Origin: Escherichia coli
GTDB lineage: Bacteria; Pseudomonadota; Gammaproteobacteria; Enterobacterales; Enterobacteriaceae
DNA length: 64,000 bases
Strand: one strand, 5' to 3'
NCBI RefSeq assembly: GCF_003334255.1
Contig: NZ_QOWU01000010.1
The position numbers were made by a program, and so were the translations under genes. Shown one piece after another: positions 33,964 through 48,349 of the stretch (its first letter is position 1; each line of letters begins with the position of its first letter). The notes below the pieces were generated by a model that ran no database searches, had not been told where the DNA came from, and saw nothing but the letters and a program-made list of their open reading frames with translations.

Positions 33964-33964
33964 A
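33956..33964. repeat. Left att core copy (ATAACAGCA) at island/tqsA junction (attL)
   Basis: Identical 9-mer at both junctions; flanking sequence on the outer sides corresponds to contiguous tqsA codons. Confidence 0.7.
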
Positions 33965-34091
33965 TTTTATCATTTAGTGTTTTTTGCTGTTTCATAATGT
34001 TTCAGGCTGTGCATTATGTTTTTGATTATCAACAGATTTGTGATTTTCCTTGTTCCAGCTTGTTTCACGTTGTAGCCCTTTGTGCAACGAT

Positions 34092-34115
34092 CGGTGTAGT
34101 CACTGGTGTAGTCAC
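34092..34115 (+). repeat. Tandem 10-bp repeat GGTGTAGTCA x2 (candidate integrase arm-type site) upstream of int
   Basis: CGGTGTAGTCACTGGTGTAGTCAC 25 bp upstream of the int start; a near-identical copy lies at 48725-48747 near the other island end. Confidence 0.5.
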
Positions 34116-34139
34116 TTTTTCGTAAAGAGGGGGTAAAAC

Positions 34140-35369
34140 GTGAGCAGAGCAATGAACAAACTGAGCGATACCTTGCTAAGGAAACTTCATGGTAAGCCAG
34201 CGGAGAAAAACACGTTTTATAGTGATGGCGGAAACCTGAGCGTGAAATATTTAACATCAGGGAAATTGACCTGGTATTTCACATACAGGGCCGGAACGGG
34301 AAGGGAGACACGACCCGAACGCATTAAGCTGGGAAGTTATCCTGATCTGAGCCTGAAAGCAGCCAGGGAAAAAGCCGCACAGTGTCGCACATGGCTGGCT
34401 GAGGGGAAAAATCCACGTCATGAGATGAATTACACCGTACAGGAAGCGTTAAAGCCCGTAACGGTTGGCGATGCGCTCACCTACTGGCTTGAGTATTACG
34501 TAAAGGAAAACCGCGTGGATTATATCGCCCTGAAAAGGCGACTTAATAATCACGTAATACAGCAGATTGGTGCTATGCCGCTGGATAAATGCGAGCTACG
34601 GCACTGGCTGGCCTGTTTTGACCAGGTGGCAAAGCGAACGCCTGTTACTGCCGGATTCGTGCTACAGGCGTGCAAACAGGCGCTTAAGTTCTGCCGTAGG
34701 CGGCGCTATGCAATCAGCAACGTTCTGGACGATCTGAACGTGGCGGACGTTGGGAAAAAACCGGATATAAGCGAACGTGTCTTAAGTAACAAAGAACTTG
34801 GCGAATTATTGCAGGCACTGGACAAAAAAATATTTTCCCCTTACTACGTCGCGTTAATCCGCCTCCTGATTGTCTTCGGAGCCAGGACGGTAGAACTGAG
34901 GCTATCGGAGATCGGGGAGTGGGATTTTACGGAAATGCTATGGACCGTTCCGAAGGAGCACAGCAAAACGAAGGTCGCAATATTCCGGCCCATACCGGAA
35001 GCGATCCTGCCGTTCGTCACGCAGCTGGTGGAGCAGAACAGGCACACGGGCTTATTGCTGGGGGAAGTGAAACAGGAGGCCAGCGTATCGCAGTATGGAA
35101 GATTAGCGCACAGGAGGCTTAATCATCCTCACTGGTCACTGCATGACATCCGGCGCACCTTTACAACCATGCTGAACGATTTAGGCGTTGATCCGCATGT
35201 CGTGGAGCAGCTTACAGGTCATCAGATGCCAGGAATGCAGCGAGTTTATAATCATTCCCGTTATCTGGATGCTAAACGCAATGCGCTGGATATGTGGATG
35301 GAGCGGTTAGGGATACTGGCGGGAACACATGAAAACGTAACCACGCTACCAGTAGCCAGAAGAAAATAA
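34140..35369 (+). CDS. int: Tyrosine integrase, P4-type (DUF4102 arm-binding N-terminal domain plus catalytic domain ending ...HDIRRTF...Y), 409 aa from GTG
   Basis: N-terminal KLSDTLLRKLHGKPAEKNTFYSDGGNLSVKYLTSGKLTWYF resembles the P4 integrase family N-terminus; C-terminal HxxRRT and downstream Tyr; GTG at 34140 has a GAGGGGG RBS (alternative ATG at 34152). Confidence 0.88.
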   Translation: MSRAMNKLSDTLLRKLHGKPAEKNTFYSDGGNLSVKYLTSGKLTWYFTYRAGTGRETRPERIKLGSYPDLSLKAAREKAAQCRTWLAEGKNPRHEMNYTVQEALKPVTVGDALTYWLEYYVKENRVDYIALKRRLNNHVIQQIGAMPLDKCELRHWLACFDQVAKRTPVTAGFVLQACKQALKFCRRRRYAISNVLDDLNVADVGKKPDISERVLSNKELGELLQALDKKIFSPYYVALIRLLIVFGARTVELRLSEIGEWDFTEMLWTVPKEHSKTKVAIFRPIPEAILPFVTQLVEQNRHTGLLLGEVKQEASVSQYGRLAHRRLNHPHWSLHDIRRTFTTMLNDLGVDPHVVEQLTGHQMPGMQRVYNHSRYLDAKRNALDMWMERLGILAGTHENVTTLPVARRK

Positions 35370-35743
35370 TTTTTTTCGTGTTTTTTCAGTATGCGCATAC
35401 TGGATATGCGAACAGATACAACATGCAACAATGAGCAACAATGCGGAACAACTACGAACAAGAGACGAAAAAGTGTACGGATTTATAAGTAGCTGATTTT
35501 TAATGTGTTACTGGTTTTTTATACACTAGCGAATCACTCTTTAAATAGCGAGAAAAAAGGCATGAAACAATATTTTATGCCTTTGTATTAACATGAATTT
35601 AAATGATTTTATCCTGATTATTCCTGTTTCTGTAAACCATACGACCTCAACATTTGCCAACTCTGAATCATCCTGACACAATCAGACACATCCCAACGCA
35701 ATAGAACACGAAATAACTCTTTAAGAAACGAAAGGGGGCAATA

Positions 35744-35932
35744 GTGTTAAGCACTGATCGGTTTATACGTGAAAAAGAATGCGAAAAGCTAACAGGCCTT
35801 AGCCGCTCATGCCGCTACCGCCTGGAAAAGGCCGGACAATTCCCATCACGTCGTAAACTTGGCGGTCGTTCCGTTGGCTGGTCTTTATCCGAGGTTCTGG
35901 CCTGGAAGGATAGCTGCAAGGCAGTTCATTAA
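35744..35932 (+). CDS. alpA: AlpA-family transcriptional regulator / excisionase-like HTH protein (62 aa, GTG start)
   Basis: LSTDRFIREKECEKLTGLSRSCRYRLEKAGQFPSRRKLGGRSVGWSLSEVLAWKDS fits the AlpA/Vis-type small HTH family; RBS AGGGGG 5 nt upstream. Confidence 0.75.
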   Translation: MLSTDRFIREKECEKLTGLSRSCRYRLEKAGQFPSRRKLGGRSVGWSLSEVLAWKDSCKAVH

Positions 35933-36432
35933 TCACGCTGGCGGCACACAGCCGCCACACATCAATCATCTGAACACAGAGCTATAACCATGAAGATTGA
36001 ATATACGCCAGAACGTGGGCGGGGATTCGTTCGCCCTGGTGAGACTGGAAAACCACAAAATTGGGGTTTTTCAGGCATAAAAAAAGCGGCCCCGAAATGG
36101 AGCCGCCTTTCTGAACAGATAACACGCTGCGCCGTTTGTGTGTGTGATCCCAAACATAAGCACGGGGATGATAGCCGCTATCAGGCTGGTGGGCAATGCA
36201 ATCAGTCTGGTTCAGTTCGTTGCCATACCTGCAATGAGCGCTTTTCCCTGTACTCTTTAAGGAATTGCTCAAGGGCAAAAGCACATGGCGCGAATCTTTC
36301 TGATTCATGCTCTATCTTTCTGCGCCGTCTTTTCCGTGCCGGTGATAATGTTTTGGTCAATTCTTTATCGGTCATTGTGTTGTCCTGCATAGCAATGCGC
36401 CGTAATACCTCACACCACGGCGCTGATAGTGA

Positions 36433-36738
36433 TTATTCTGATTCTTTGGCCTTGCGGCGCTGTAGTTCTTCACGAGCGATGGCGATAAGTTGCCCGAGTT
36501 CTTCCGTAGCTTTAATACCAATTTTTTCCACTTGCGCCAATGCATCGAGAGAAGAAATCAGAGGATTTTCACTGCTTCCTTCTGCCTGGCGGCGGGCGAT
36601 CTCCCCGCGCATGGCGGTTACTATGAATCCGGCGTTGCTTTCGCCGTCCAGTTTTACGGATTCCATGCCATCAAAAGCATCATGTGGGATACGAATTGAA
36701 ATCTGTTTTGATTTGTCGTTGATAGTGTTTTTTGCCAT
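36433..36738 (-). CDS. Hypothetical protein (101 aa), leftward-transcribed; candidate island regulator
   Basis: Start at Met 14 of the ORF, with AGGAGA RBS 7 nt upstream; the only clearly leftward gene in the island, divergent from the replication operon; function unknown. Confidence 0.5.
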   Translation of the reverse strand: MAKNTINDKSKQISIRIPHDAFDGMESVKLDGESNAGFIVTAMRGEIARRQAEGSSENPLISSLDALAQVEKIGIKATEELGQLIAIAREELQRRKAKESE

Positions 36739-36925
36739 GTGCATTCTCCTAAACAAAAGATGTGATTCAGTATACACAAAAAAGAATCACAAAAAACACT
36801 TGACCTGTGATTCAGTTGAATTTAATTTAAATCACACCTCAGTAAGAGGATGTAAACGACAACGCCCCGAACTGTTTGCGGCAGTAGCGGGGCGTCTAAC
36901 CAAACCGTTAACAGGAGTAACGATT

Positions 36926-37123
36926 ATGGCTGGAACACAGCATACCCCACGTCTGGCGCACACACAAACTGCCTTTGTGTGGCGTTTTCTGGCACTAAGT
37001 GCCGGAGAATCTCAAATCATCCACGTAACCGCCTGGACGGAACGCGAAGCGCGTAGCCGTTGCCCGTCCGGTTGTGTTGCTGTATTCGCCGCCCGTATTC
37101 GTCAGGGGGTGTGCCATGCCTGA
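36926..37123 (+). CDS. Small protein (65 aa), first gene of rightward operon; possibly Icd-like (function uncertain)
   Basis: ATG at 36926 preceded by AGGAG RBS (ACAGGAGTAACGATTATG); C-terminal part of the spurious long ORF 35990-37123; stop overlaps next gene start. Confidence 0.5.
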   Translation: MAGTQHTPRLAHTQTAFVWRFLALSAGESQIIHVTAWTEREARSRCPSGCVAVFAARIRQGVCHA

Positions 37124-37436
37124 CATGACCAATTACCAGTACCTGATTAATCCGCATTTTAACTGTGAGCATGATATTGCTAAAAAGGTTTATTCCGCTG
37201 CGGATGGGGCTACTGACAATATATCAATGGCTGTTTCGTCAATTGGTAGCCTGATGTGGTATGCGTCAGAAAATAAGGAATATGACGAAAAGGCCATGCG
37301 CATTGATATGGGTAATATTGGTTTGTTACTGGCAATGCTTGGACATTTTGATATTTCGTTACGGTGCACCATTGAAAATGCCACAGATGCATTAAATGCT
37401 ATAAAGAAAGCGAATACTGATTCAAATCGGGGATAA
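37116..37436 (+). CDS. Hypothetical protein (106 aa)
   Basis: ATG at 37116 overlapping the upstream stop (translational coupling); no recognisable motif. Confidence 0.5.
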   Translation: MPDMTNYQYLINPHFNCEHDIAKKVYSAADGATDNISMAVSSIGSLMWYASENKEYDEKAMRIDMGNIGLLLAMLGHFDISLRCTIENATDALNAIKKANTDSNRG

Positions 37437-37442
37437 ATAATC

Positions 37443-37742
37443 ATGAGAACGTATTTATCTGGCTTTACTGCCAGCGGTTATGCACACCCCAAAATTATCC
37501 CCGGCGCTATTTATCTGGATAAGAACGGTAACAGAGTAACGGTAAAAGAACTGATGTTTGACCGTGTGTATTTTATTCGTGATGGCTATTCATTTCATAG
37601 TTCGCTGAACGTGGAGATCTTTATTAGCAGATTCCGGCGGGAAATCCCGCTTTCCAGAAATAACCATGTGTCATGTATGGATGTTGATAAAAAACTACAG
37701 GAACTGAAAAACATGATTGCCGCGTGGAGAGAGCAGAAATGA
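37443..37742 (+). CDS. Hypothetical protein (99 aa)
   Basis: ORF directly upstream of and overlapping the primase gene start; no recognisable motif. Confidence 0.5.
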   Translation: MRTYLSGFTASGYAHPKIIPGAIYLDKNGNRVTVKELMFDRVYFIRDGYSFHSSLNVEIFISRFRREIPLSRNNHVSCMDVDKKLQELKNMIAAWREQK

Positions 37743-39556
37743 AAAAAGCGCCAAATTTAAAACACCAGCCGCGTGACAAAATGACGGAAGTCATCATTTT
37801 TGCGGGTAGTGATGCGTGGGCACATGCGAAGCAGTGGCAGGAACAGGACGGGCGACTGGCTGGCGATAACGTGCCACCTGTCTGGCTTGGAGAGCAACAA
37901 CTTGCCGAACTGGACAACCTGCAAATCGTACCGGACGGACGCTATCGCGTGCGTCTCTACCAGGCGGGGTTATTGCGTCCGGGGCTTGTTAATACCATCG
38001 GGCAGAAACTGGCAGCGGCAGGTGTCAGGGATGCTGATTATTACCCTGAAGGAATGCACAGCCAGAAACGGGAGAACTGGCGCGAATATCTGGAACGTGA
38101 GCGGGGAGAGCTGGCGGAAAAGAAAAAGGTAGTTGAACTGCCTGTAAAGAAAAAAGAGCGGGTAAAAGACGATAACGCTTCATCACTGGCGCTTAACCAG
38201 ATGGGAGCAAGTCAACGCGGCGAAGTTCTCCTGGCACATTATGGCGGTGAACTGGCGATTCATGCTGACTCTGACACTGTTCACTATTACAACGGCGTTG
38301 TATGGGAGCCAGTACAGGATAAAGAATTACAGCGAGCTATGGCGCAGATTTTCATTGATGCGGAGATCAGCTATTCGCAGAACGCCATTAAATCGGCGGT
38401 CGATACCATGAAGTTAAGTTTGCCTGTAATGGGGAATACAGCCCGTAACCTGATTGGATTCAGTAACGGTGTTTTTGATACCCGGACAGGCGATTTTCGG
38501 GAGCATAACAAAAACGACTGGTTGTTAATTGCCAGTGAATTACCTTTCAGCCCACCAGCAGAGGGGGAAACGCTGGCAACACATGCGCCGAATTTCTGGA
38601 AGTGGTTACGCCGTTCGGTGGCTGAGAATGACCGCAAGGCGGATCGCGTACTGGCTGCATTATTCATGGTGCTGGCGAACCGGTACGACTGGCAGTTATT
38701 CATTGAGGTAACAGGTCCAGGGGGAAGTGGTAAAAGCGTGATGGCGGAGATTTGCACCATGCTGGCGGGTAAGGCCAACACGGTATCGGCAAGCATGAAG
38801 GCGCTGGAAGATGCCAGGGAACGCGCGTTAGTGGTTGGCTTTTCGCTGATTATCATGCCGGATATGACCCGTTACGCTGGTGATGGCGCAGGAATTAAGG
38901 CCATTACAGGCGGTGACAAGGTGGCAATCGACCCGAAGCATAAAGCCCCCTACTCAACACGCATTCAGGCGGTAGTGTTGGCGGTGAACAATAACGCCAT
39001 GTCATTCAGTGACCGCAGCGGGGGGATTTCACGTCGTCGGGTGATATTCAATTTTTCGGAGGTTGTACCGGAAAACGAACGCGACCCCATGCTGGCAGAA
39101 AAAATAGAAGGAGAGCTGGCGGTTGTGATTCGCCACCTGCTTACTCGTTTTTCTGACCAGGACGCAGCTAAACGCCTGCTGTATGAGCAGCAGAAATCAG
39201 AAGAAGCTCTGGTGATAAAACGCGAGGGCGATTCGCTGGTGGACTTCTGCGGCTATCTCATGTCGTCGGTAATGTGTGATGGTCTGTTAGTGGGTAATGC
39301 CGAAATTATTCCGTTCAGTCCGCGCAGGTATCTTTATCACGCCTATCTGGCATATATGAGGGCACACGGATTCGGTAAACCTGTAACACTGACGCGCTTC
39401 GGTAAAGATATGCCGGGGGCAATGGCGGAATATGGCAGGGAGTATATGAAACGGAAAACGAAGCACGGTTTGCGTTCAAACGTGACACTGACGGAGGAAT
39501 CAGAAGACTGGATGCCATCATGTGTATCGGTCACTAATGACGATAGCAAAAATTAA
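37739..39556 (+). CDS. Primase / replication initiator with P4/D5-type NTPase domain (605 aa)
   Basis: Walker A VTGPGGSGKS and downstream Walker B-like hydrophobic-acidic stretch in the C-terminal half (P4-family primase C-terminal domain architecture); GGAGAG RBS before ATG 37739; followed by an iteron array. Confidence 0.75.
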   Translation: MKKAPNLKHQPRDKMTEVIIFAGSDAWAHAKQWQEQDGRLAGDNVPPVWLGEQQLAELDNLQIVPDGRYRVRLYQAGLLRPGLVNTIGQKLAAAGVRDADYYPEGMHSQKRENWREYLERERGELAEKKKVVELPVKKKERVKDDNASSLALNQMGASQRGEVLLAHYGGELAIHADSDTVHYYNGVVWEPVQDKELQRAMAQIFIDAEISYSQNAIKSAVDTMKLSLPVMGNTARNLIGFSNGVFDTRTGDFREHNKNDWLLIASELPFSPPAEGETLATHAPNFWKWLRRSVAENDRKADRVLAALFMVLANRYDWQLFIEVTGPGGSGKSVMAEICTMLAGKANTVSASMKALEDARERALVVGFSLIIMPDMTRYAGDGAGIKAITGGDKVAIDPKHKAPYSTRIQAVVLAVNNNAMSFSDRSGGISRRRVIFNFSEVVPENERDPMLAEKIEGELAVVIRHLLTRFSDQDAAKRLLYEQQKSEEALVIKREGDSLVDFCGYLMSSVMCDGLLVGNAEIIPFSPRRYLYHAYLAYMRAHGFGKPVTLTRFGKDMPGAMAEYGREYMKRKTKHGLRSNVTLTEESEDWMPSCVSVTNDDSKN

Positions 39557-39569
39557 ACTTATGGAATAA

Positions 39570-39792
39570 CTGTTCACCACTGTTCACCCTGTCATAAATA
39601 TCTTTTGTATCAGTATGTTATAGGGTGAACAGTTATTTATGAACTGTTCACCAAACTATTCACTGTTCACCTTTTTGATTGTTTATTGAGCTTCAAGGGT
39701 GAACAGTGGTGAATAGTTGGTGAATAGTTTTTGTGAAACTGTTCACCCCTTAACATTATGAATTAAAAGATAAAATATCAAAAGGTGAACAG
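39570..39792. repeat. Iteron array (at least 8 copies of CTGTTCACC / GGTGAACAG in both orientations): candidate island replication origin
   Basis: Copies at 39570, 39580, 39624(inv), 39644, 39663, 39698(inv), 39739, 39784(inv) plus GGTGAATAG variants at 39708 and 39718, in AT-rich DNA just after the primase gene. Confidence 0.65.
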
Positions 39793-39843
39793 GTGAAGGG
39801 TTAAAACGCAAAAATTTTAATTTACTGCTGTGAGATAAAGCCT

Positions 39844-40089
39844 ATGACAGCGAAGCACACAAAAAAATCACAATCGCACGCCCTTGATTTGACGGAACAC
39901 TGGTTAAGGGTGTCGATAAAAATCATCGACCGCAACGCCGGGGAAGGATATGCGAAAGCACATCCCGAACTGATTAGCTCATTCATGACAACGGCAGCTG
40001 CAAACTTTGCCACGCTGACAGAACGGGAGATTGCCGAAGCGGAACAGGTGACAACCATCAACGTTAAAACCGGAGAGCAGACAGCATGA
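39844..40089 (+). CDS. Hypothetical protein (81 aa)
   Basis: ORF immediately upstream of and overlapping the ssb start (ATGA overlap); weak RBS. Confidence 0.4.
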   Translation: MTAKHTKKSQSHALDLTEHWLRVSIKIIDRNAGEGYAKAHPELISSFMTTAAANFATLTEREIAEAEQVTTINVKTGEQTA

Positions 40090-40496
40090 CAGCACAGATA
40101 GCAGCTTACGGGCGGCTGGTGGACGACCCGCAGGTAAAACAGACCAGTAAGGGCACACCGATGACGCTGGCGCGTATGGCGGTATCGTTGCCATGTAGTC
40201 AGGCGCAGGATGGGCAGGCGACGTTATGGCTATCGGTCATCGCATTTGGTAAGCAGGCCGACTTCCTGGCTAAACATCAAAAAGGCGACGTTGCCAGCGT
40301 ATCCGGCACGATGCAGGTCAGCCAGTGGACCGGACAGAACGGGGAAACGCGGCAGGGTTATCAGGTTATTGCAGACAGCGTAATCAGTGCCCGTGCGGCA
40401 CGTCCTGGCGGGAACAGACGCAAAACCACAGGCACACAGGGTAATCAGCCACCAGCGGGAGGCGATGACCCTTACGGTGACGGTATTCCGTTCTGA
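40086..40496 (+). CDS. ssb: Single-stranded DNA-binding protein (136 aa)
   Basis: OB-fold-like N-terminal region, Gly/Pro/Gln-rich linker and acidic C-terminal tail ...DDPYGDGIPF, the hallmark SSB protein-interaction tail. Confidence 0.75.
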   Translation: MTAQIAAYGRLVDDPQVKQTSKGTPMTLARMAVSLPCSQAQDGQATLWLSVIAFGKQADFLAKHQKGDVASVSGTMQVSQWTGQNGETRQGYQVIADSVISARAARPGGNRRKTTGTQGNQPPAGGDDPYGDGIPF

Positions 40497-40506
40497 GGGG
40501 GTGGCG

Positions 40507-40779
40507 ATGGTACATGACCGCATAGCGGAAGAACTCGAGGCGAAAGGCTTTTACCGGAGGGCGGCGGCGCGATGGGGTGAAGTCATGCTGCTGGTGGAGA
40601 CAGACAAGGAACGGCATCAGGTTACGATGCGACGGCTGGAATGTTCCAGGAAGGCACAGAAGCCACCGGAGCCGCCGGATAACTTCGGAGACCTGAGAAA
40701 GGCAGTAGATCGCACTTATGCTGAAATGGGTATAGATGGTGTAAGCGATGAAATATGGCGTAATTACCCAGACAGCTAA
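40507..40779 (+). CDS. PerC-family-like small transcriptional activator (90 aa)
   Basis: MVHDRIAEELEAKGFYRRAAARWGEVM... resembles the conserved PerC motif (LEAxGxxRRAAxRW) as I remember it; GAGGGGG RBS. Confidence 0.5.
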   Translation: MVHDRIAEELEAKGFYRRAAARWGEVMLLVETDKERHQVTMRRLECSRKAQKPPEPPDNFGDLRKAVDRTYAEMGIDGVSDEIWRNYPDS

Positions 40780-40784
40780 TCAAC

Positions 40785-40808
40785 AGCCGGAGAAATCCGG
40801 CTTTTTTT
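40785..40808 (+). terminator. Intrinsic terminator
   Basis: AGCCGGAGAAATCCGGCT followed by TTTTTTT. Confidence 0.65.
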
Positions 40809-40903
40809 GCACCAGTTGAAACGGTATGGCGCATTACCGGGTTTTCGTCACGGTCAGGCATAGTTACTATCTGAAACAAACAGACACAACAGAGGAAAAA
40901 ACA

Positions 40904-41128
40904 ATGCCGATGAAATTTGATGAGATATTAAAACAGCGTGATAAATACCATGCTGACAACATGGAGACGATGAGCATCAATGATTACCGCGCATTCCTGG
41001 AGACGGGCGCACTGATTGAAAAGGATCAGCATGGTTTTGTGAGATGTGCTCTGTCCGGTGAAATGCTGGCGGTAAATCCTGAACAGATAGATGCATTGAT
41101 AGAATTTCTGAAAGGGATCAGGGACTGA
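40904..41128 (+). CDS. Hypothetical protein (74 aa)
   Basis: Start at internal Met with GAGGAAAAAACA-ATG RBS; followed by a terminator almost identical to the one at 40785. Confidence 0.45.
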   Translation: MPMKFDEILKQRDKYHADNMETMSINDYRAFLETGALIEKDQHGFVRCALSGEMLAVNPEQIDALIEFLKGIRD

Positions 41129-41138
41129 GCACGCATAC

Positions 41139-41160
41139 AGCCGGAGCAATCCGGCTTTTT
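41139..41160 (+). terminator. Intrinsic terminator (near-duplicate of 40785-40808)
   Basis: AGCCGGAGCAATCCGGCT followed by TTTTT. Confidence 0.65.
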
Positions 41161-41420
41161 GTCATTTTTTGTAAATTATTTGTTCGTGGTTGTTCCACGT
41201 TGTTCACTGACAGGATCGGCATATTTTACCCGAACTGAATCATGAGTATTCTCGCCCGTGGTGCCAGGACGCTGGGGCCACTTTCCCGCCTGTTAATGTG
41301 CTCGCCAATATTCATTACCAGGCGGGAAAACGATCGGTGCGATTGCTGATTTCCTTATGAAAAACGGTTGAGTTTTTGCCGCGTCCTGGAGTTCCTTACT
41401 TAACCCCAGGACTTTTTTTT

Positions 41421-42578
41421 ATGCCGAGAATAATCGAATTACGCCAGCAGAAAACCGCCATTAAAAATCAGATGCGCGACATGCTGGAGAACGCGGAAAA
41501 AGAAAACCGCAGCCTTAACGATGCAGAGGGCGCAAAATTTGACGAATTACGCGCTAAAGCTGAATCCCTCGATAAAGACATTTCCCGCCTTGAAGCCATT
41601 GCAGACGAAGAGCGCAGCAAGCCAGGTAAAAGCAGCCAGACCACTGACCCGGCAGAACTCCGCAACTACATCCTGACAGGTGAAACCCGCGCATTAAGTA
41701 CAGGCGTTCCCGCTGATGGTGGTTATACCGTTATCCCCGAACTGAACACCGAAATCATGCGAATGCTGACGGATGAATCCACCATGCGCCGCATCTGTAC
41801 CGTGAAGAAAATCAGCAGCAACGAGTTTAAGCAGCTTGTTTCCGCTGGCGGTGCGACCGTTAACCACGGTGAAGAGGGTAAGACACGCGAACAGACCAGC
41901 ACCCCGCAGATTAACGAGGTGAGCATTAAGCTGTATCCGGTCTATGCGTACCCGCGCACCACACAGGAAATCGTGGATTTTTCCGATGTGGACATCCTTT
42001 CATGGCTGACGGGTGAGATTGGCGACACCTTCACGGAAACCGAAGAAAGCGATCTGGTTGTGGGCGACGGTGACAAAAAAGCAAAAGGTTTTTTATCCGT
42101 ACCCCGTGCAGAGAAGAACGACAAAGAGCGTGATTTTGGTACGTTGCAGGTAATTAAACCTTCCGAATCTCTGGCGTGGACATCTGCGGACCCGCTGATC
42201 GACCTGAAATTTGCATTACGTAAAAAATACCGCAAAAACGCGGTCTGGGTGGTTAACTCCACGACGGCGGCAAAACTTCAGAAGGTGAAGAACGCGAACG
42301 GTGATTACATCTGGCGCGACCGTTTACAGGCGGGTGATCCTGATACGTTGCTGGGCCTTCCGGTCGAATATCTGGAGTTTATGCCTGATAACGTTATTGC
42401 CCTGGGTGACTTCAAACGCGGTTACTACATTGTTGATCACGAAACAGGTGTTCGCACCAGACCGGACAACCTCACAGAGCCGGGCTTCATCAAAATTTTC
42501 ACGCAGAAATATTTAGGCGGTGGCGTGGTGGATTCGAACGCGATCAAGATTCTGGAACTGCCACAGGACGACGATTAA
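41421..42578 (+). CDS. Major capsid protein, HK97 fold, with N-terminal coiled-coil scaffolding (delta) domain (385 aa from ATG 41421)
   Basis: N-terminal coiled-coil region (IELRQQKTAIKNQMRDMLENAEKENRSLNDAEGAKFDELRAKAESLDKDISRLEAIADEE) followed by a region typical of HK97-family capsid proteins; ORF track start 41376 is a TTG extension; strong terminator follows. Confidence 0.85.
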   Translation: MPRIIELRQQKTAIKNQMRDMLENAEKENRSLNDAEGAKFDELRAKAESLDKDISRLEAIADEERSKPGKSSQTTDPAELRNYILTGETRALSTGVPADGGYTVIPELNTEIMRMLTDESTMRRICTVKKISSNEFKQLVSAGGATVNHGEEGKTREQTSTPQINEVSIKLYPVYAYPRTTQEIVDFSDVDILSWLTGEIGDTFTETEESDLVVGDGDKKAKGFLSVPRAEKNDKERDFGTLQVIKPSESLAWTSADPLIDLKFALRKKYRKNAVWVVNSTTAAKLQKVKNANGDYIWRDRLQAGDPDTLLGLPVEYLEFMPDNVIALGDFKRGYYIVDHETGVRTRPDNLTEPGFIKIFTQKYLGGGVVDSNAIKILELPQDDD

Positions 42579-42590
42579 CAGCATACAGAA

Positions 42591-42620
42591 GGGGCTTAAA
42601 AGCCCCTTTAGTGTTTTATG
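42591..42620 (+). terminator. Intrinsic terminator after major capsid gene
   Basis: GGGGCTT-AA-AAGCCCC hairpin followed by a T-rich tract. Confidence 0.65.
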
Positions 42621-42632
42621 GGTGAAAAAATT

Positions 42633-43190
42633 ATGAAGAGTATGGAAATCCGGTCATCGGAAATCACCACCAGCGCCAGCAACACGCTTACAGGCTACGT
42701 TGTTCGCTGGGATAAGCTTTCAGAGCTGCTATGGGGGGAGTTTTACGAAAAATTCCAGCGGGGAGCGTTTACTGAATGGCTTGCGGCGGGTAATGACGTT
42801 CGCGGCCTGTATGAGCATGACCACAGCATGTTGCTGGGGCGTACCCGTTCCGGCACGCTGAAACTGGAAGAGGACGAAACAGGGTTACGCTTTGAACTGA
42901 CCCCACCGGATACCAGTACAGGGCGCGACGTTATCGAACTGGTTAAGCGTGGGGACATCTCGGGGATGAGCTTTGGCTTTCGCTCCCGTAAGGATGTATG
43001 GGATACCACAACAGATCCATGCGTGCGCACCGTGCTGGTGGCGGAACTGTACGAAATTACCGTTACATCGGTACCGGCTTACCCCGATTCCGGCGTGGAG
43101 CTGGCCCGCCGTTCCCTGTATGAGCAGCACCCCGAAAAAATGCCGCGTGCGGATAATCGCCGCTGGTGGGTGGATTTAGCGGGGGTGTGA
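42633..43190 (+). CDS. Prohead maturation protease, HK97 family (S78-like), about 186 aa
   Basis: Sequence typical of HK97-type prohead proteases (GYVVRWDKLS..., YEHDHSMLLGRTRSGTL, GDISGMSFGF); start ambiguous among ATG 42618/42633/42642. Confidence 0.8.
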   Translation: MKSMEIRSSEITTSASNTLTGYVVRWDKLSELLWGEFYEKFQRGAFTEWLAAGNDVRGLYEHDHSMLLGRTRSGTLKLEEDETGLRFELTPPDTSTGRDVIELVKRGDISGMSFGFRSRKDVWDTTTDPCVRTVLVAELYEITVTSVPAYPDSGVELARRSLYEQHPEKMPRADNRRWWVDLAGV

Positions 43191-43191
43191 T

Positions 43192-44403
43192 ATGTGGCTT
43201 TTCAGAAGAAAAAAAGAGCAGCGCAGCATGACGCTTGATGAATTTATGGCGCTGGCTGGCACATCGAACACGGGGGCGGGTGAGTACGTATCATCGGGGA
43301 CAGCGGAATCACTGCCCGCCGTCATGAACGCCGTGACGGTCATCTCTGAGGCGGTGGCTACCATGCCGTGTTACCTGTACCTGGTACGCAATGAGAAGGG
43401 GAAGGAGGCCCGCGAGTGGCTTGATTCTCATCCGGTCGATCACATCCTCAACGAGCGCCCGAACGCGTGGCAGACTCCCTACCAGTTTAAGCGAATGATG
43501 ATCCGCCACTGCCTGTTAAACGGTAATGCTTATGCGGTGATTCAGTGGGGGCGTGATGGTTTTCCGGTGGCTTTACATCCTTACCCGCCGCAGTCGGTGA
43601 ACGTGGAGCAGACAGGCGAACACAACTGGCGCTACTGCATCACTGACGCCTACACCGGAAACACCCGCAACTATTTACCGTGGGAGGTTCTCCACCTTCG
43701 TTACTCCACGGATGACGGTTTTATGGGGCGCTCACCTGTAACCATCTGCCGCGAATCGCTGGGGCTTGGGCTGGCCCAACAACGCCACGGCGCGAGCGTG
43801 ATGCGTGATGGCATGATGGCGGCAGGGGTTATCACGTCAGGCGAATGGCTGGACGGCGTGAAGGGCAAACAGGCATTAGCCGCACTGGAACGCTACAAAG
43901 GGGCCAGAAACGCCGGAAAAACGCCCATCCTTGAAGGGGGTATGAGCTATCAGCAGCTGGGCATGAGTAATCAGGATGCTGAATGGCTGGCCTCCCGTCG
44001 CTTCACCATTGAAGACATCGCCCGAATGTTCAACGTCTCGCCGATTTTTCTGCAGGAATACAGCAACAGCACCTACAGCAATTTCAGCGAGGCAAGCCGC
44101 GCATTTCTCACCATGACAATGCGCCCGTGGCTGGCGAACTTTGAGCAGCAGATAAAAAACGCCCTGCTGGTGGCCTCGCCTGTACCTGGTATCCGGTATC
44201 AGGTGGAGTTTGACAGCGCGGACCTGTTACGGGCCACACCTGGCGAACGCTTTGCCACCTATGAACGCGGCATCAAATCCGGCGTTATGTGCCCGAACGA
44301 AGCCCGCGAACGTGAAGGGCTGTCCCCGCGTGATGGTGGTGATGAGTTCAGCCAGGCATGGAAACAGGAAGTAAAAATCAGCGAGGGAGAAAAACCGGAA
44401 TGA
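43192..44403 (+). CDS. Portal protein, HK97 family (403 aa)
   Basis: Size, position and conserved portal-like core (…LLNGNAYAVIQWGRDG…, …ILEGGMSYQQLGMSNQDAEWL…); immediately follows the protease with 1-nt spacing. Confidence 0.8.
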   Translation: MWLFRRKKEQRSMTLDEFMALAGTSNTGAGEYVSSGTAESLPAVMNAVTVISEAVATMPCYLYLVRNEKGKEAREWLDSHPVDHILNERPNAWQTPYQFKRMMIRHCLLNGNAYAVIQWGRDGFPVALHPYPPQSVNVEQTGEHNWRYCITDAYTGNTRNYLPWEVLHLRYSTDDGFMGRSPVTICRESLGLGLAQQRHGASVMRDGMMAAGVITSGEWLDGVKGKQALAALERYKGARNAGKTPILEGGMSYQQLGMSNQDAEWLASRRFTIEDIARMFNVSPIFLQEYSNSTYSNFSEASRAFLTMTMRPWLANFEQQIKNALLVASPVPGIRYQVEFDSADLLRATPGERFATYERGIKSGVMCPNEAREREGLSPRDGGDEFSQAWKQEVKISEGEKPE

Positions 44404-44738
44404 ACATAGGGCGACTGCGTGACAGGGTAACGATTCAGACCCTGAAACAGACCAGGGATATAACCGGCGAAATACTCGAAACGTGGGAGGACGGTCACAC
44501 ACTCTGGGCAAGCGTGAACATGATCAGCAGCAAGGAGGCCATTTCATCGGGTGCAGAGCTGGCGATTGGTACCGTAAGGATCTGGATACGGTACCGGAAG
44601 GACATCAATGCCACCAGCCGGATAAAGGTCAGTACGGGGCCGCTGGCGGGGCGTGTACTGAATATCATCGGGCAGCCGCTGCCGGATGCCGCCAGGACAC
44701 GCCTTGAAATTCTTTGTCGTGAGGGCGCGGAAAAATGA
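44400..44738 (+). CDS. Head closure / head-tail adaptor protein (112 aa)
   Basis: MNIGRLRDRVTIQTLKQTRD... resembles the head-tail joining family; ATGA overlap with portal stop; GAGGGAGA RBS. Confidence 0.7.
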   Translation: MNIGRLRDRVTIQTLKQTRDITGEILETWEDGHTLWASVNMISSKEAISSGAELAIGTVRIWIRYRKDINATSRIKVSTGPLAGRVLNIIGQPLPDAARTRLEILCREGAEK

Positions 44739-45031
44739 CAGAAGAACTTATCACCCTGGAAGAAGTGAAACTCCATTGCCGCATCGATGGCGACGAGGAA
44801 GACCAGTTAATCAGCGGATACATCGCCGCATCGCTTGAGGCGTGCCAGATACACATAGGCAGGCGCTTTGATGACGGGCTGGAGTTCACGCCAGCCATAA
44901 AGATTGGCTGCATGATGTTTATCGCTCACCTGTATGAAAATCGCCAGATTGTCGCGGATAACGCAAAAACACGCGTACCCATGACGATTGGTGCACTCTG
45001 GACGGCTTACCGTGATGTGGGGGTGTACTGA
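44735..45031 (+). CDS. gp6-like head-tail connector protein (98 aa)
   Basis: MTEELITLEEVKLHCRIDGDEEDQLISGYIAASLEACQIHIG... resembles the gp6-like connector family N-terminus. Confidence 0.7.
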   Translation: MTEELITLEEVKLHCRIDGDEEDQLISGYIAASLEACQIHIGRRFDDGLEFTPAIKIGCMMFIAHLYENRQIVADNAKTRVPMTIGALWTAYRDVGVY

Positions 45032-45471
45032 TGCCGTGGCAACCATTAAGACGATGCACAGAACCAGGCTGTAACAGGCGCGTGAAGTCCGGCAAGTGTG
45101 AGGAGCACAGGCGGGCGGCATGGCGTGCAGAGGATGCCAGACGAGGACACCGCCGCGCGCGTGGGTACTCCAGACAGTGGGACAAATACCGCGCCATGTA
45201 TCTGAGTAAAAACCCGTTATGCGTGCGATGCCTTGAGAAGGGGATATATACGCCCGCCGTGGTGGTGGATCACATTATCCCGATTAATGGCGGTGATGAT
45301 GTTCTCTTCTGGCCCGAATGGAACCATCAGCCATTGTGCCAGGCGTGCCATAACCAGAAAACGAAATGGCTTGATCCGGCAACAAAAAGCAAGCGTGCCG
45401 CAGGTGGATTTCGTGAAGAGGAAGAACGGGCCGCTAACCGCAATAACTGGATGTATGACGCTGATGAATGA
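45031..45471 (+). CDS. HNH endonuclease (packaging-associated), 146 aa
   Basis: Cys pairs plus VVDHIIPINGGDD...NHQPLCQACHNQK (HNH motif); located immediately upstream of TerS as in HK97-like cos packaging modules. Confidence 0.85.
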   Translation: MPWQPLRRCTEPGCNRRVKSGKCEEHRRAAWRAEDARRGHRRARGYSRQWDKYRAMYLSKNPLCVRCLEKGIYTPAVVVDHIIPINGGDDVLFWPEWNHQPLCQACHNQKTKWLDPATKSKRAAGGFREEEERAANRNNWMYDADE

Positions 45472-45759
45472 GCGGGAACAAAACCGCCTTATCCGTGGAC
45501 TTATAAGGCAGCGTGACGCATGGAAGACACAGGAAACAGGGCATAAAGATAAAGCGTCAGGACGCGCAGAACGCATCACAGCGAAGCGATTAACCGACCG
45601 TGACCGCGAGGTTATGGAATGTTTCCGCAATCGCTGATGAGGCTGTATGACGGGGTGGGGGGCGTTTTCAGGACAAACCCGACCCCGCCGGGCACCGACC
45701 GCCTCCTCAAATTTTTATGCACGGGAATTTTTTGAAAAATAATCTGACGAAAAATAAGC

Positions 45760-46116
45760 ATGGCAAGACCACCGAAAGCCCCCGCCTACCTGGATGACAT
45801 CGCCGTGAAGCAGTGGCGGGAAAAATCGCGGCAGCTTGCGGAACGGGGAGACCTGACCCCCGCCGACTGGAGCAATCTGGAACTGTATTGTGTCAACTAC
45901 TCCATTTACCGGAAAGCCGTCGCAGACCTTGCGGCGCGCGGGTTCAGCATTGTTAACAGTCAGGGCGGCGAGAGCAGAAACCCCGCATTAAGCGCGAAAT
46001 CAGACGCTGAAAGGGTGATGATAAAAATGGCCTCCTTGCTCGGTTTTGACCCGATAAGCCGCCGTAAAAACCCACCGGAAACAGAAGAAGAGGACGAGCT
46101 TGACCGCCTGGAATAA
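45760..46116 (+). CDS. Terminase small subunit, P27 family (118 aa)
   Basis: Resembles P27-type TerS (AVKQWREKSRQLAERGDLTPADWSNLELYCVNYSIYRKA); overlaps TerL start. Confidence 0.8.
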   Translation: MARPPKAPAYLDDIAVKQWREKSRQLAERGDLTPADWSNLELYCVNYSIYRKAVADLAARGFSIVNSQGGESRNPALSAKSDAERVMIKMASLLGFDPISRRKNPPETEEEDELDRLE

Positions 46117-47761: not shown

Positions 47762-47774
47762 TGAGGTCAGCAGC

Positions 47775-48056
47775 ATGACAGAAGCCGAAATAACGGGATT
47801 AATCCGCCGCGTTGCCGGAATCAGCCAGCAGGCTGACGAACAGGCCACGCAGCCGGACAGCGTGACAGCCGAAAACTATGCGCGTGTTGTTGCTGAGGTG
47901 ATGCGCCGTGATGGTATAGAACTTAATGGCGTGGATATGCGCAACATACGAACCAGAGTTCTTGAGTTGCTGGCCTACCGTCGCCGCGTGGAGATGTATC
48001 GGGAGAAGGAGAAAATAACGTACCACTGGAAGAAGCCGGAGCGGTTGCGGCGGTAA
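47775..48056 (+). CDS. Hypothetical protein (93 aa), last gene of island
   Basis: ATG 47775 with GAGG RBS 8 nt upstream; no recognisable motif. Confidence 0.5.
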   Translation: MTEAEITGLIRRVAGISQQADEQATQPDSVTAENYARVVAEVMRRDGIELNGVDMRNIRTRVLELLAYRRRVEMYREKEKITYHWKKPERLRR

Positions 48057-48349
48057 CTGGTTGATATTCCCGACGGACCAAAAATGGGTGGCTACATCCC
48101 TCGCTTCTGAGGACTGTTAACAAGCTGCCTGAAAGACAGTCACAAACTACGAAATTTTCGCAGTTTAATTAATGATCAGCTTAATCGCTAACCCGCTGAT
48201 ATTTTCGGAAACCTCAATTTGAGGAAGTCGGCGCGGTAACTCGCTGAACTTTAAGCAAAGTGCAAAATTGCGCTTGCTGAATAATCATTATGATTACGCA
48301 GATGATTAAGGAATGACCGAAGGCGGAAATTCGCCTGTGGTTAATGGGG

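What the first reader, a model, noticed from the sequence alone, without database searches (positions are those of the whole stretch)
40086..40779. Island carries its own SSB and a PerC-like regulator between replication and capsid modules
The ORF at 40086-40496 ends in the acidic SSB tail motif (DDPYGDGIPF), and the next ORF (40507-40779) carries a PerC-like motif. A PerC-like activator on a satellite could act on host or helper promoters, and a dedicated SSB suggests replication autonomy or interference with helper replication. Flanking small ORFs (37116-37436, 37443-37742, 39844-40089, 40904-41128, 47775-48056) have no recognisable function and are candidates for helper-interference or defence cargo.
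Basis: partly seen in the sequence, partly recalled or inferred. Interest (0 to 1): 0.45.

Follow-up and report, generated by a model that had tools for sequence, protein, structure and literature searches.

The report
Known satellite genes: ssb and pchE
The two ORFs are real and correctly read, but they are the already described ssb and pchE genes of a capsid-forming phage satellite (cf-PICI) that is common in E. coli, so the finding is ordinary.

Summary
ORF 40086-40496 is an SSB (Pfam PF00436, E 5.6e-17; TIGR00621 above its cut-off; C-terminus ...DGIPF). ORF 40507-40779 is a full-length PerC-family protein (PF06069, E 3.4e-45).

Both are 100% identical in protein to ECs1587 and PchE (ECs1588) of E. 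coli O157:H7 Sakai prophage-like element Sp7. Sp7 is CP-933C / OI-51, and I infer it is the prototype cf-PICI EcCIEDL933. The window carries a mosaic relative of that island (~33964-48813) inserted in tqsA.

The SSB and PerC genes were listed for OI-51 in 2012. PchE has been studied: it does not activate LEE, it represses csgD/curli, and it induces flagella. 5' RACE showed that ECs1586-ssb-pchE is one transcript. PerC-like genes are described as common in Gram-negative PICIs.

What I add:
- The pair lies directly downstream of a cluster of eight P4-type TGTTCACC iterons.
- It occurs in 722 of 5426 complete E. coli genomes, in both classical and capsid-forming PICIs.
- perC is facultative (68 of 78 loci) and sits at a recombination junction.
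- The PerC core looks ANR-like and helical, with no recognisable DNA-binding fold.
- ORF 37443-37742 is an RgdR/DUF4222 relative.

No defence-system hits. Novelty: already known. Interest is low.

The parts
33964..48813 (+). The whole satellite island (about 14.85 kb), a capsid-forming PICI of the EcCIEDL933 type inserted in tqsA. Boundaries are approximate.
   Evidence: The tqsA fragments end and begin at these points in the 99% identical annotated locus L001. Homology with Sakai Sp7 starts at 33964. Gene content is int, AlpA, Icd-like, DUF4222, primase, SSB, PerC, MCP, protease, portal, head closure, connector, HNH, TerS, TerL, with no tail or lysis genes.
37443..37742 (+). DUF4222 protein, a distant relative of the LEE/T3S regulator RgdR (ECs1581). 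It lacks the RGD motif and has PGA at that position.
   Evidence: RefSeq annotation is DUF4222. It is 29% identical over 99 aa to ECs1581 and matches phrog_285. RgdR function and the importance of the RGD motif are described in PMC3378721.
37739..39556 (+). P4-family DNA primase/replicase of the island.
   Evidence: Annotated as 'DNA primase family protein'. Only the C-terminal 143 aa are 70% identical to the Sp7 primase, so this is a different replication module from EcCIEDL933.
39571..39791 (.). Cluster of eight exact TGTTCACC repeats on both orientations (the type-I iteron of phage P4 ori/crr). This is the presumed island origin or cis-replication region, directly upstream of the ssb operon.
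   Evidence: One search found 10 copies in the 64 kb window against 2.3 expected; none of 100 shuffles reached 10, and 8 of the copies lie in these 221 bp. Inverted arrangements appear (D3, D8). That TGTTCACC is the P4 iteron comes from my own knowledge of P4.
39844..40089 (+). Small ORF (81 aa, ECs1586 homologue, phrog_1231), the first gene of the three-gene operon. Its stop overlaps the ssb start (ATGA).
   Evidence: It is 71% identical to ECs1586. It was detected upstream of ssb in 77 of 80 IMG/VR loci. Homologues occur almost only in E. coli, Shigella and Citrobacter. The AF2 model has low confidence and shows two long helices. Homology to Sp7 begins at 39904, inside this ORF.
40086..40496 (+). 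ssb: a short (136 aa) OB-fold single-stranded DNA-binding protein with a roughly 30-residue linker and a ...DDPYGDGIPF tip. It is 100% identical to ECs1587.
40507..40779 (+). pchE: a PerC-family protein (90 aa), 100% identical to PchE ECs1588 of O157 Sakai. A GAGGGGG ribosome-binding site lies upstream.
   Evidence: The AF2 model (pLDDT 87.2) is all-helical. The best fold matches are TPR-like hairpins. The ANR relationship rests.
40785..40808 (+). Intrinsic terminator-like hairpin plus T-run that ends the o39844-ssb-pchE operon.
   Evidence: 7-bp stem, 5 GC pairs, TTTTTTT tail. A 96% identical copy lies at 41137-41160 (D6).
40904..41128 (+). Small ORF (74 aa, identical to ECs1589, phrog_1957) of unknown function, bracketed by the two near-identical terminators.
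41190..41204 (+). TTGTTCCACGTTGTT motif upstream of the capsid operon. It is repeated near both island ends and in the int-alpA intergenic region. It is a candidate AlpA or Int binding site (inference only).
   Evidence: Exact copies lie at 41190 and 48693. Copies with 2 mismatches lie at 34050, 34060 and 35437 (minus strand). Sakai Sp7 has the same layout.
41421..47761 (+). Capsid and packaging module: HK97-type MCP, protease, portal, head closure, connector, HNH, TerS, TerL. It is 96-100% identical in protein to Sp7.
47775..48056 (+). Small ORF (93 aa, 87% identical to ECs1599, phrog_1561) of unknown function. It is also conserved at the right end of classical PICIs.
   Evidence: homology 47775-48068 in CFT073 and strain 2015C-3905.

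Best explanation
Coordinates 40086-40779 hold the ssb and pchE genes of a capsid-forming phage-inducible chromosomal island (cf-PICI). The island is closely related to, and mosaic with, EcCIEDL933 (Sp7 / CP-933C / OI-51 of E. coli O157:H7), and here it is inserted in tqsA.

Together with the upstream 81-aa ORF the two genes form one operon (39844-40779). The first junction is an ATGA overlap, the second is a 10-bp gap with a ribosome-binding site, and a hairpin terminator follows pchE. The operon starts immediately downstream of the island's P4-type iteron cluster.

Shown by others for the identical O157 proteins: the three genes are one transcript made in uninduced cells; its promoter activity falls on SOS induction; and PchE, when overexpressed, represses csgD/curli, raises flhDC and fliC, lowers stpA, and does not activate LEE.

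Inferred here:
1. The SSB is a replication accessory protein of the island. It would coat the ssDNA produced by the P4-type primase-helicase and use its conserved ...D(D/G)IPF tip to dock host replisome proteins.
2. PchE is not a classical DNA-binding activator. It is an ANR-like small helical protein that acts by binding host regulators (candidates are H-NS/StpA-type or AraC-type proteins), so that the resident satellite shifts its host from biofilm and adhesion towards motility.
3. pchE is facultative cargo placed at the junction between the replication and packaging modules. ssb and the upstream ORF are near-constant parts of that module.
For: - Identity: SSB 100% and PerC 100% identical to ECs1587 and PchE. 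MCP, TerS and the connector are 100% identical, and TerL is 97.8%. Nucleotide identity to Sp7 is 97.7% across 39904-48068.
- Families.
- cf-PICI gene set without tail or lysis genes.
- EcCIEDL933 is described as the prototype cf-PICI of strain EDL933 (bioRxiv 10.1101/2022.09.08.507074 and 10.1101/2025.02.11.637232).
- OI-51 is described as containing a P4 integrase, an alpha-like replication gene, an ssDNA-binding protein, PchE and structural genes (PMC3378721).
- Operon: sequence, terminator. 5' RACE found a polycistronic ECs1586-ECs1587-pchE RNA, and the promoter fusion fell about 3-fold on SOS (PMC7369912).
- PchE phenotypes: PMC6265319 and PMC7369912.
- Origin: eight TGTTCACC iterons in 39571-39791.
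- Distribution: the pair is at least 80% covered in 722 of 5426 complete E. coli genomes. It is present in the classical PICI locus of CFT073. Strain 2015C-3905 has ssb without perC, and homology there stops exactly at the ssb stop codon. Among 78 IMG/VR loci with room downstream of ssb, perC follows in 68 (28 of 28 cf, 39 of 47 classical).
- SSB: W54, F60, W88 and the IPF tip are conserved.
Against: - No experiment addresses ssb or pchE in the PICI life cycle. The cf-PICI papers I could read do not mention them.
- PchE phenotypes come mainly from plasmid overexpression. Deletion changed csgD and flhDC only about 2-fold (PMC7369912).
- The ANR relationship is below NCBIfam's curated cut-off. 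TPR-like matches are common for any short helical hairpin.
- SSB lacks the W40 and H55 equivalents of E. coli SSB, and this copy has G instead of D before IPF, so tetramer formation and partner binding are not assured.
- The promoter region of this island differs from the one mapped in O157, and the simple sigma-70 scan found no promoter.
- The equation EcCIEDL933 = CP-933C rests on strain, size and gene content, not on a coordinate statement I could read.
Confidence: 0.8

Rival explanations
1. PchE is mainly a regulator of the satellite-helper interplay and only incidentally a host regulator. It might activate or time the island's packaging operon, or act on helper-phage promoters.
For: The gene keeps a fixed position between the replication and packaging modules, in 28 of 28 cf-type and 39 of 47 classical loci. 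Several PHROG families that match its N-terminal half are labelled 'transcriptional activator'. Another PICI with a PerC-like gene affects its helper's replication, although that effect was not assigned to the PerC gene (PMC11773190).
Against: - perC is missing from about 10 of 78 islands, including at least one annotated locus whose other island genes are still present.
- AlpA is the established master activator: an alpA mutation abolishes induction and transfer (10.1101/2022.09.08.507074).
- pchE is transcribed in the uninduced state, and its expression goes down on SOS, when helpers are induced (PMC6265319, PMC7369912).
- A terminator separates it from the packaging genes.
- No DNA-binding fold was detected.
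Confidence: 0.12
2. The SSB is not primarily a replication protein of the island. It would be an interference or counter-defence factor, for example titrating host SSB partners through its IPF tail, interfering with helper replication, or masking or triggering SSB-sensing immune systems.
For: - The gene is co-transcribed with pchE in the resident, uninduced state, not only on induction (PMC7369912).
- It is only about 28% identical to host SSB and has a shortened linker.
- It has no close relatives in deposited enterobacterial phage genomes; the best phage matches are about 30-35% identical, from gut-metagenome and Gram-positive phages.
Against: - It lies next to the primase gene and the iteron cluster, the usual place for a replication accessory gene.
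- It is retained when perC is lost.
- It gave no PADLOC hit.
- No experimental hint of interference was found in the literature searched.
Confidence: 0.1
3. The genes are inert leftovers of a degraded P4-like cryptic prophage. This was the older reading of OI-51.
For: [quoted passage not shown]
Against: - EcCIEDL933 is a functional, transferable satellite (10.1101/2022.09.08.507074, 10.1101/2025.02.11.637232).
- The ORFs are intact and 100% conserved between islands at two different chromosomal sites.
- They are present in hundreds of genomes.
- pchE is transcribed and has phenotypes (PMC6265319, PMC7369912).
Confidence: 0.02

Closest known systems
ECs1587 (ssb) and ECs1588 (pchE) of prophage-like element Sp7 / CP-933C / O-island 51 of E. 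coli O157:H7 (the cf-PICI EcCIEDL933)
   Same: The proteins are 100% identical. The order is the same: small ORF, ssb, pchE, small ORF, capsid module. The packaging module is nearly identical.
   Different: - The chromosomal site differs: tqsA here, the roxA/phoQ site in O157.
- The integrase is 91% identical.
- The primase N-terminal part, the iterons and the genes between alpA and the primase are different.
- The RgdR-family gene is only 29% identical and lacks the RGD motif.
Classical Gram-negative PICI EcCICFT073 (CP073-3 of UPEC CFT073)
   Same: It has the same small-ORF, ssb, perC trio after a P4-family primase, with 93.6% nucleotide identity over 39879-40730. The int, AlpA, Icd-like and DUF4222 layout is the same.
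   Different: Its morphogenesis module is a capsid-remodelling type, without portal or TerL. Its PerC is 82 aa and diverges from pchE at the 3' end.
EcCIMP1_025, the PerC-like protein of PICI EcCIMP1 (PMC11773190)
   Same: It is a PerC-family protein carried by an E. coli PICI. It does not behave as a LEE activator, and its authors also proposed that it is ANR-like.
   Different: It is only about 40% identical according to that paper. It strongly represses LEE1, whereas PchE was reported to have no effect on LEE1 fusions. EcCIMP1 has no capsid genes.
PerC of the EPEC pEAF plasmid and PchA/B/C of EHEC lambdoid prophages
   Same: They belong to the same Pfam family (PF06069) and share the conserved N-terminal helices.
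   Different: Those proteins activate LEE1/ler. PchE (group 3) does not (PMC6265319, PMC11773190). They are carried on a plasmid or on lambdoid prophages, not on satellites.
ANR (AraC negative regulator) family, prototype Aar of EAEC
   Same: These are small proteins with three predicted helices. The conserved A-x3-E-x7-A-x3-W spacing is the same, and there are in-register HMM matches (PMC4983702). They act by protein-protein binding to AraC-type regulators and to H-NS (PMC4983702, PMC5570504).
   Different: The score is below NCBIfam's cut-off (17.9 bits against 32). PchE has about 40 extra C-terminal residues forming two more helices. No binding partner of PchE is known.
E. coli chromosomal SSB
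   Same: Both have the OB fold, conserved W54, F60 and W88 equivalents, and a C-terminal acidic tip ending in IPF.
   Different: - Identity is 28%.
- The island protein is 136 aa against 178 aa.
- Its linker is about half as long.
- The W40 and H55 equivalents are absent.
Satellite phage P4 replication system (alpha primase-helicase, ori/crr iterons)
   Same: There is a P4-family primase, followed by a cluster of TGTTCACC repeats.
   Different: To my knowledge P4 encodes no SSB and no PerC-family gene. P4 steals whole P2 capsids, whereas this island makes its own.

Membership tests
Bacterial/phage SSB (OB-fold, Pfam PF00436 / TIGR00621) | Sequence match to the SSB OB-fold profile above the curated threshold | tested here: met
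   PF00436 i-E 5.6e-17. TIGR00621 scores 57.7 bits against a cut-off of 53.95. 25 solved SSB chains match.
Bacterial/phage SSB (OB-fold, Pfam PF00436 / TIGR00621) | Flexible linker followed by an acidic C-terminal tip ending in IPF, which recruits partner proteins | tested here: met
   The sequence ends ...GGDDPYGDGIPF. Sister islands have ...YGDDIPF. Partner binding itself was not tested.
Bacterial/phage SSB (OB-fold, Pfam PF00436 / TIGR00621) | Aromatic ssDNA-stacking residues (E. coli W40, W54, F60, W88) and tetramer-interface H55 | tested here: inconclusive
   The W54, F60 and W88 equivalents are conserved. The W40 and H55 equivalents are not (the E. coli sequence was entered from memory).
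Bacterial/phage SSB (OB-fold, Pfam PF00436 / TIGR00621) | Cooperative binding to ssDNA as an oligomer | not testable with these tools
   Needs EMSA or biophysics.
PerC / Pch family (Pfam PF06069) | Full-length match to the PerC profile | tested here: met
   PF06069 i-E 3.4e-45, residues 1-89 of the 90-position model. The protein is 100% identical to PchE.
PerC / Pch family (Pfam PF06069) | Activation of LEE1/ler transcription, the function that named the family | not testable with these tools
   For the identical protein the literature reports that it is not met. Group 3 pchE is not required for ler/espA expression (PMC6265319, citing Iyoda & Watanabe 2004) and has no effect on LEE1-lacZ (PMC11773190, citing Porter 2005). 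Overexpression raised ler only 2.1-fold (PMC7369912).
ANR (AraC negative regulator) family, NCBIfam NF033650 | Score above the curated cut-off of the ANR model | tested here: not met
   17.9 bits against a cut-off of 32, E 0.0021, aligned in register 7-51 to 9-53 of 54. Short PerC relatives score up to 31.6 bits.
ANR (AraC negative regulator) family, NCBIfam NF033650 | Three-helix architecture with conserved A, E, A, W on one helical face | tested here: met
   The AF2 model has helices 5-13, 16-29 and 33-50. The nearly invariant residues A7, E11, A19 and W23 have the spacing of the ANR consensus A10, E14, A22, W26 (PMC4983702).
ANR (AraC negative regulator) family, NCBIfam NF033650 | Direct binding to AraC-family regulators and/or H-NS | not testable with these tools
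   Needs two-hybrid, pull-down or SPR assays.
Capsid-forming PICI (cf-PICI; SatelliteFinder cfPICI model) | The 11 core components: int, AlpA-type regulator, primase-replicase, capsid, protease, portal, head-tail adaptor, head-tail connector, HNH, TerS, TerL | tested here: met
   All are present in that order. The packaging proteins are 96-100% identical to those of Sp7, which I infer to be EcCIEDL933. The model is described in PMC10085698.
Capsid-forming PICI (cf-PICI; SatelliteFinder cfPICI model) | No tail or holin/lysis genes; size about 14-15 kb | tested here: met
   No such genes are annotated between 33964 and 48813 in the equivalent RefSeq loci. The island is about 14.85 kb.
Capsid-forming PICI (cf-PICI; SatelliteFinder cfPICI model) | Helper-phage-dependent induction through AlpA, assembly of its own small capsids, use of helper tails | not testable with these tools
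   Shown for EcCIEDL933 (10.1101/2022.09.08.507074, 10.1101/2025.02.11.637232), not for this copy.
Known anti-phage defence systems (PADLOC-DB v2) | Match of SSB, PerC or any of the five flanking small ORFs to a defence-system protein model | tested here: not met
   None of the 7 proteins matched any family at E up to 0.01.

The most novel reading that the evidence does not exclude
The o39844-ssb-pchE operon is a conserved 'resident-state' module of enterobacterial PICIs and cf-PICIs. PchE would work like an ANR: a protein-protein antagonist or modulator of H-NS/StpA- or AraC-type regulators, not a DNA-binding activator. Satellites found in about 13% of complete E. coli genomes would then be a widespread means of switching hosts between biofilm/adhesion and motility. 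In the same reading, the co-expressed short SSB, with its variant IPF tip, has a role beyond island replication in the uninduced cell, for instance competing for SSB-interacting host proteins or interacting with SSB-sensing immunity.
Probability: 0.2. Interest if true: 0.45.

Novelty: already known. Interest (0 to 1): 0.13.

Why it matters
The finding has little weight as a discovery. The genes, their operon, their carrier element and several PchE phenotypes are published.

It does have some practical value:
- It shows that the pchE 'virulence regulator' of EHEC is standard equipment of a mobile satellite family found in commensal and pathogenic E. coli alike. The best match here is a faecal isolate from a healthy person.
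- It shows that pchE is exchanged as a cassette at a module junction.
- It points out that nobody has yet tested what ssb, pchE and the small upstream ORF do for the satellite itself.

If PchE proves to be an ANR-like protein-binding modulator, that would unify the PerC and ANR families mechanistically.

Tried and rejected
- PADLOC scan of SSB, PerC and the five small ORFs gave no hit, so there is no support for known defence cargo.
- NCBIfam gave nothing for the five small ORFs. PHROGs placed each in a family of unknown function.
- tblastn of PchE against 50,697 phage records found only one 1.5-kb fragment at 36% identity. This PerC subgroup is therefore not a feature of deposited phage genomes. 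The SSB has only distant phage relatives, about 30-35% identical.
- A sequence search of the PDB with PchE found no significant match.
- o39844: two homologue searches, the second with a profile, found only close enterobacterial relatives. The AF2 model had pLDDT 64.5, too low for a meaningful fold search, so I ran none.
- The sigma-70 consensus scan of 39400-41500 found no promoter. The promoter region is not conserved with the O157 island where the transcription start was mapped, so the start site of this copy remains unassigned.
- Rfam (E up to 0.1) gave only two sub-threshold plant microRNA matches over 39632-39739. These are artefacts of the inverted iterons. No tRNA genes were found.
- My first reading of the 76-nt repeat 34043-34118 / 48676-48751 as the att duplication of tqsA was wrong. 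The same sequences occur in Sp7 at another chromosomal site, so they are island-internal.
- Porter et al. 2005 (PMC543544) could not be read. Its result is cited second-hand.
Full report
**1. Observation**

The two ORFs are present on the + strand exactly as described.

ORF 40086-40496 encodes 136 aa ending in GGDDPYGDGIPF. It matches:
- Pfam SSB PF00436 (i-E 5.6e-17, residues 5-99);
- NCBIfam TIGR00621, above its curated cut-off (57.7 against 53.95 bits);
- phrog_44 'single strand DNA binding protein' (1.3e-39);
- 25 solved SSB chains.

ORF 40507-40779 encodes 90 aa and matches Pfam PerC PF06069 over the whole model (1-89 of 90, i-E 3.4e-45).

RefSeq annotates the same two CDS in a 99.9% identical locus of E. 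coli G1/2, a faecal isolate from a healthy person.

**2. Context**

The annotated equivalent locus and the ORF list give this layout, left to right:
- a tqsA fragment (host);
- integrase, AlpA-type HTH, an Icd-like gene, a small ORF, and a DUF4222 gene;
- a P4-family primase (37739-39556);
- small ORF 39844-40089, then ssb, then perC;
- small ORF 40904-41128;
- HK97-type major capsid protein, prohead protease, portal, head-closure protein, head-tail connector, HNH, TerS and TerL;
- small ORF 47775-48056;
- the other tqsA fragment, then mdtJI (host).

There are no tail or lysis genes. This is the gene set that defines a capsid-forming PICI (cf-PICI) (PMC10085698; bioRxiv 10.1101/2022.09.08.507074). 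From the tqsA fragment ends and the homology limits, the island spans about 33964-48813.

**3. Identity with a known element**

Sakai prophage-like element Sp7 (NC_002695 1594711-1610171) has the same order of genes. Protein identities to the window are:

| Window protein | Sp7 protein | Identity |
|---|---|---|
| SSB | ECs1587 | 100% |
| PerC | PchE (ECs1588) | 100% |
| ORF 40904-41128 | ECs1589 | 100% |
| Major capsid protein | MCP | 100% |
| TerS | TerS | 100% |
| Head-tail connector | ECs1594 | 100% |
| TerL | TerL | 97.8% |
| ORF 47775-48056 | ECs1599 | 87% |
| ORF 39844-40089 | ECs1586 | 71% |
| Integrase | integrase | 91% |
| Primase | ECs1582 | only the C-terminal 143 aa align, at 70% |

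At the DNA level, 39904-48068 is 97.7% identical to Sp7. The region between alpA and the primase is different.

Sp7 is the same element as CP-933C / O-island 51 of EDL933 (PMC3378721). EDL933 carries the prototype cf-PICI EcCIEDL933, described as 15.4 kb with int, alpA, rep and a full capsid and packaging set but no tails (10.1101/2022.09.08.507074). I infer that these are the same element. PMC11773190 also states that EcCIEDL933 and EcCICFT073 encode the PerC-like genes tested by Porter et al. 2005.

The window therefore holds a mosaic relative of EcCIEDL933, with another replication module, at another attachment site. The same tqsA-inserted island occurs in O157, O26 and O111 strains and in commensals.

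**4. What is already published about these genes**

- Flockhart et al. [quoted passage not shown] They noted that the SSB gene is conserved in the related CFT073 and ED1a elements.
- PchE is the group 3 pch gene. It is not needed for ler/espA expression. On a plasmid it strongly represses csgD, curli and biofilm. It is expressed without induction, and its expression falls more than 6-fold on SOS induction (PMC6265319).
- Overexpression raises fliC about 20-fold and flhDC more than 2-fold, lowers stpA 2.5-fold and raises ler 2.1-fold.
- 5' RACE gave a single polycistronic RNA covering ECs1586, ECs1587 (ssb) and pchE, starting 10 nt upstream of ECs1586 (PMC7369912).
[quoted passage not shown] It shows that its own PerC-like protein represses LEE1, and it proposes an ANR-like function.

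The finding is therefore already known.

**5. Anatomy added here**

(a) Operon. The stop codon of ORF 39844-40089 overlaps the ssb start (ATGA). pchE follows ssb after 10 bp and has a GAGGGGG ribosome-binding site. A hairpin terminator follows pchE at 40785-40808. A 96% identical hairpin follows ORF 40904-41128, so that ORF is bracketed by two near-identical terminators.

(b) Origin. Eight exact TGTTCACC octamers lie in 39571-39791, between the primase gene and the operon. The whole window has 10 copies against 2.3 expected, and none of 100 shuffles reached 10. To my knowledge this is the type-I iteron of P4 ori/crr. The equivalent intergenic regions of Sp7, CFT073 and strain 2015C-3905 are not alignable and carry other repeats. 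That fits iterons matched to each primase type. It also means the promoter mapped in O157 cannot be transferred to this copy. The consensus scan found no sigma-70 promoter.

(c) Module junctions. Homology with Sp7 begins at 39904, inside the small ORF. Homology with a classical PICI that lacks perC stops exactly at the ssb stop codon (40496). Homology with the CFT073 PICI stops at 40730, inside perC. perC therefore sits at a recombination junction.

**6. Distribution**

- The ssb-perC pair is at least 80% covered at megablast level in 722 of 5426 complete E. coli genomes.
- The classical PICI locus of CFT073 has the same small-ORF, ssb, perC trio after its primase.
- A classical PICI in tqsA of strain 2015C-3905 has the small ORF and ssb but no perC.
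- Among the 80 IMG/VR loci fetched with the SSB, 78 have more than 400 bp downstream of ssb. perC follows in 68 of them (28 of 28 cf-type, 39 of 47 classical). The small upstream ORF was detected in 77 of the 80 loci.
- Deposited phage genomes lack this PerC subgroup. They hold only distant SSB relatives, about 30-35% identical.

So ssb plus the upstream ORF behave as a near-constant part of the PICI replication region. perC behaves as frequent but facultative cargo.

**7. Mechanism: SSB**

It loses the W40 and H55 equivalents. The linker is about half as long. Sister islands end in YGDDIPF, whereas this copy and the O157 copy end in YGDGIPF.

The most likely role (inference) is a replication accessory protein. 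It would coat the ssDNA generated by the island's primase-helicase at the adjacent origin and recruit host replisome and repair partners through the IPF tip.

No paper I could find tests this, so interference or counter-defence roles remain open rivals.

**8. Mechanism: PchE**

A full HMMER scan of 1.84 billion representative proteins found 102 relatives. In an alignment of 72 of them, R17 is invariant, and A7, L10, E11, G14, R18, A19, R22, W23 and C46 are nearly invariant.

PchE gives an in-register but sub-threshold hit to NCBIfam ANR_neg_reg (17.9 bits against a cut-off of 32). Nine of ten short PerC relatives do the same, up to 31.6 bits. The A7/E11/A19/W23 spacing equals the ANR consensus A10/E14/A22/W26, whose equivalents in Aar are needed for activity (PMC4983702). 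ANRs act by binding AraC-type regulators and H-NS (PMC4983702, PMC5570504).

I therefore favour an ANR-like, protein-binding mode of action on host regulators. This would explain why PchE does not behave as a LEE activator and why it has broad effects on csgD, flhDC and stpA. This step is inference. It was also proposed for EcCIMP1_025 (PMC11773190).

**9. Flanking small ORFs**

- 37443-37742 is a DUF4222 protein, 29% identical to RgdR/ECs1581. RgdR is a published positive regulator of LEE/T3S whose RGD motif matters for activity (PMC3378721). This copy has PGA in place of RGD.
- 37116-37436, 39844-40089, 40904-41128 and 47775-48056 each fall into a PHROG of unknown function. They have no NCBIfam or PADLOC match.
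- ORF 39844-40089 has homologues only in close enterobacteria. Its low-confidence model shows two helices.

Nothing supports defence cargo. Their function remains unknown.

**10. Verdict**

Novelty: already known. Interest is low. The open question is what ssb, pchE and the upstream ORF do for the satellite itself. That can be tested directly with deletions in EcCIEDL933.

Noticed in passing
window 41190-41204, 48693-48707, 34050-34074, 35437-35451 (minus strand): A 15-nt motif TTGTTCCACGTTGTT occurs exactly upstream of the capsid operon and near the right island end. Copies with 2 mismatches lie in tandem near the left end and in the int-alpA intergenic region. Sakai Sp7 has the same layout at a different chromosomal site. 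The classical PICIs examined have the end and int-alpA copies but not the mid-island one. This could be the binding site of AlpA or Int, linking excision to packaging-operon activation.
   Followed up: partly
window 39571-39791: Eight exact TGTTCACC octamers (the P4 ori/crr type-I iteron, from my own knowledge) in direct and inverted orientation lie between the primase gene and the ssb operon. Related islands with other primase types have unalignable intergenic regions with other repeats. The inverted iterons also produce spurious sub-threshold plant microRNA hits in Rfam.
   Followed up: partly
window 40783-40806 and 41137-41160: Two 24-nt, 96% identical terminator hairpins bracket the 74-aa ORF 40904-41128 (identical to ECs1589). 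This looks like a small self-contained cassette between the ssb-pchE operon and the capsid operon.
   Followed up: no
window 37443-37742: This DUF4222 protein is a distant homologue (29% identity) of RgdR/ECs1581, the OI-51 regulator of type III secretion. It has PGA where RgdR has its functionally important RGD motif (PMC3378721). The island thus carries members of two families known from EHEC virulence regulation.
   Followed up: partly
window ~33225-33963 and ~48814-48958 (minus strand): The island splits tqsA, which encodes the AI-2 transporter. RefSeq marks both pieces as partial pseudogenes in equivalent loci. The same site is used by cf-type and classical PICIs. Loss of TqsA could itself affect quorum-sensing and biofilm phenotypes and would confound island-deletion experiments.
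   Followed up: no
window 34043-34118 and 48676-48751: A 76-nt imperfect direct repeat (76% identity) lies near both island ends. It shares an exact stretch, CGGTGTAGTCACTGGTGTAGTCA. It is island-internal, because it is also present in Sp7 at another attachment site. It probably contains recombinase arm-type sites. The true att core was not determined.
   Followed up: partly
window 35990-37123 (+) and 36433-36777 (-): The 377-aa + strand ORF is probably an artefact that fuses unrelated frames. It ends in the Icd-like reading frame. On the opposite strand lies a 114-aa ORF corresponding to the 'YlcI/YnfO family protein' annotated in sister islands. Segment 36439-36887 differs from strain G1/2 but matches O157 strain PV15-279, which is another mosaic junction.
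   Followed up: no
L001 11049-11164 (window ~40748-40863): RefSeq carries a 'trigger factor, frameshifted' pseudogene call that overlaps the end of perC and its terminator. It is almost certainly an annotation artefact.
   Followed up: no
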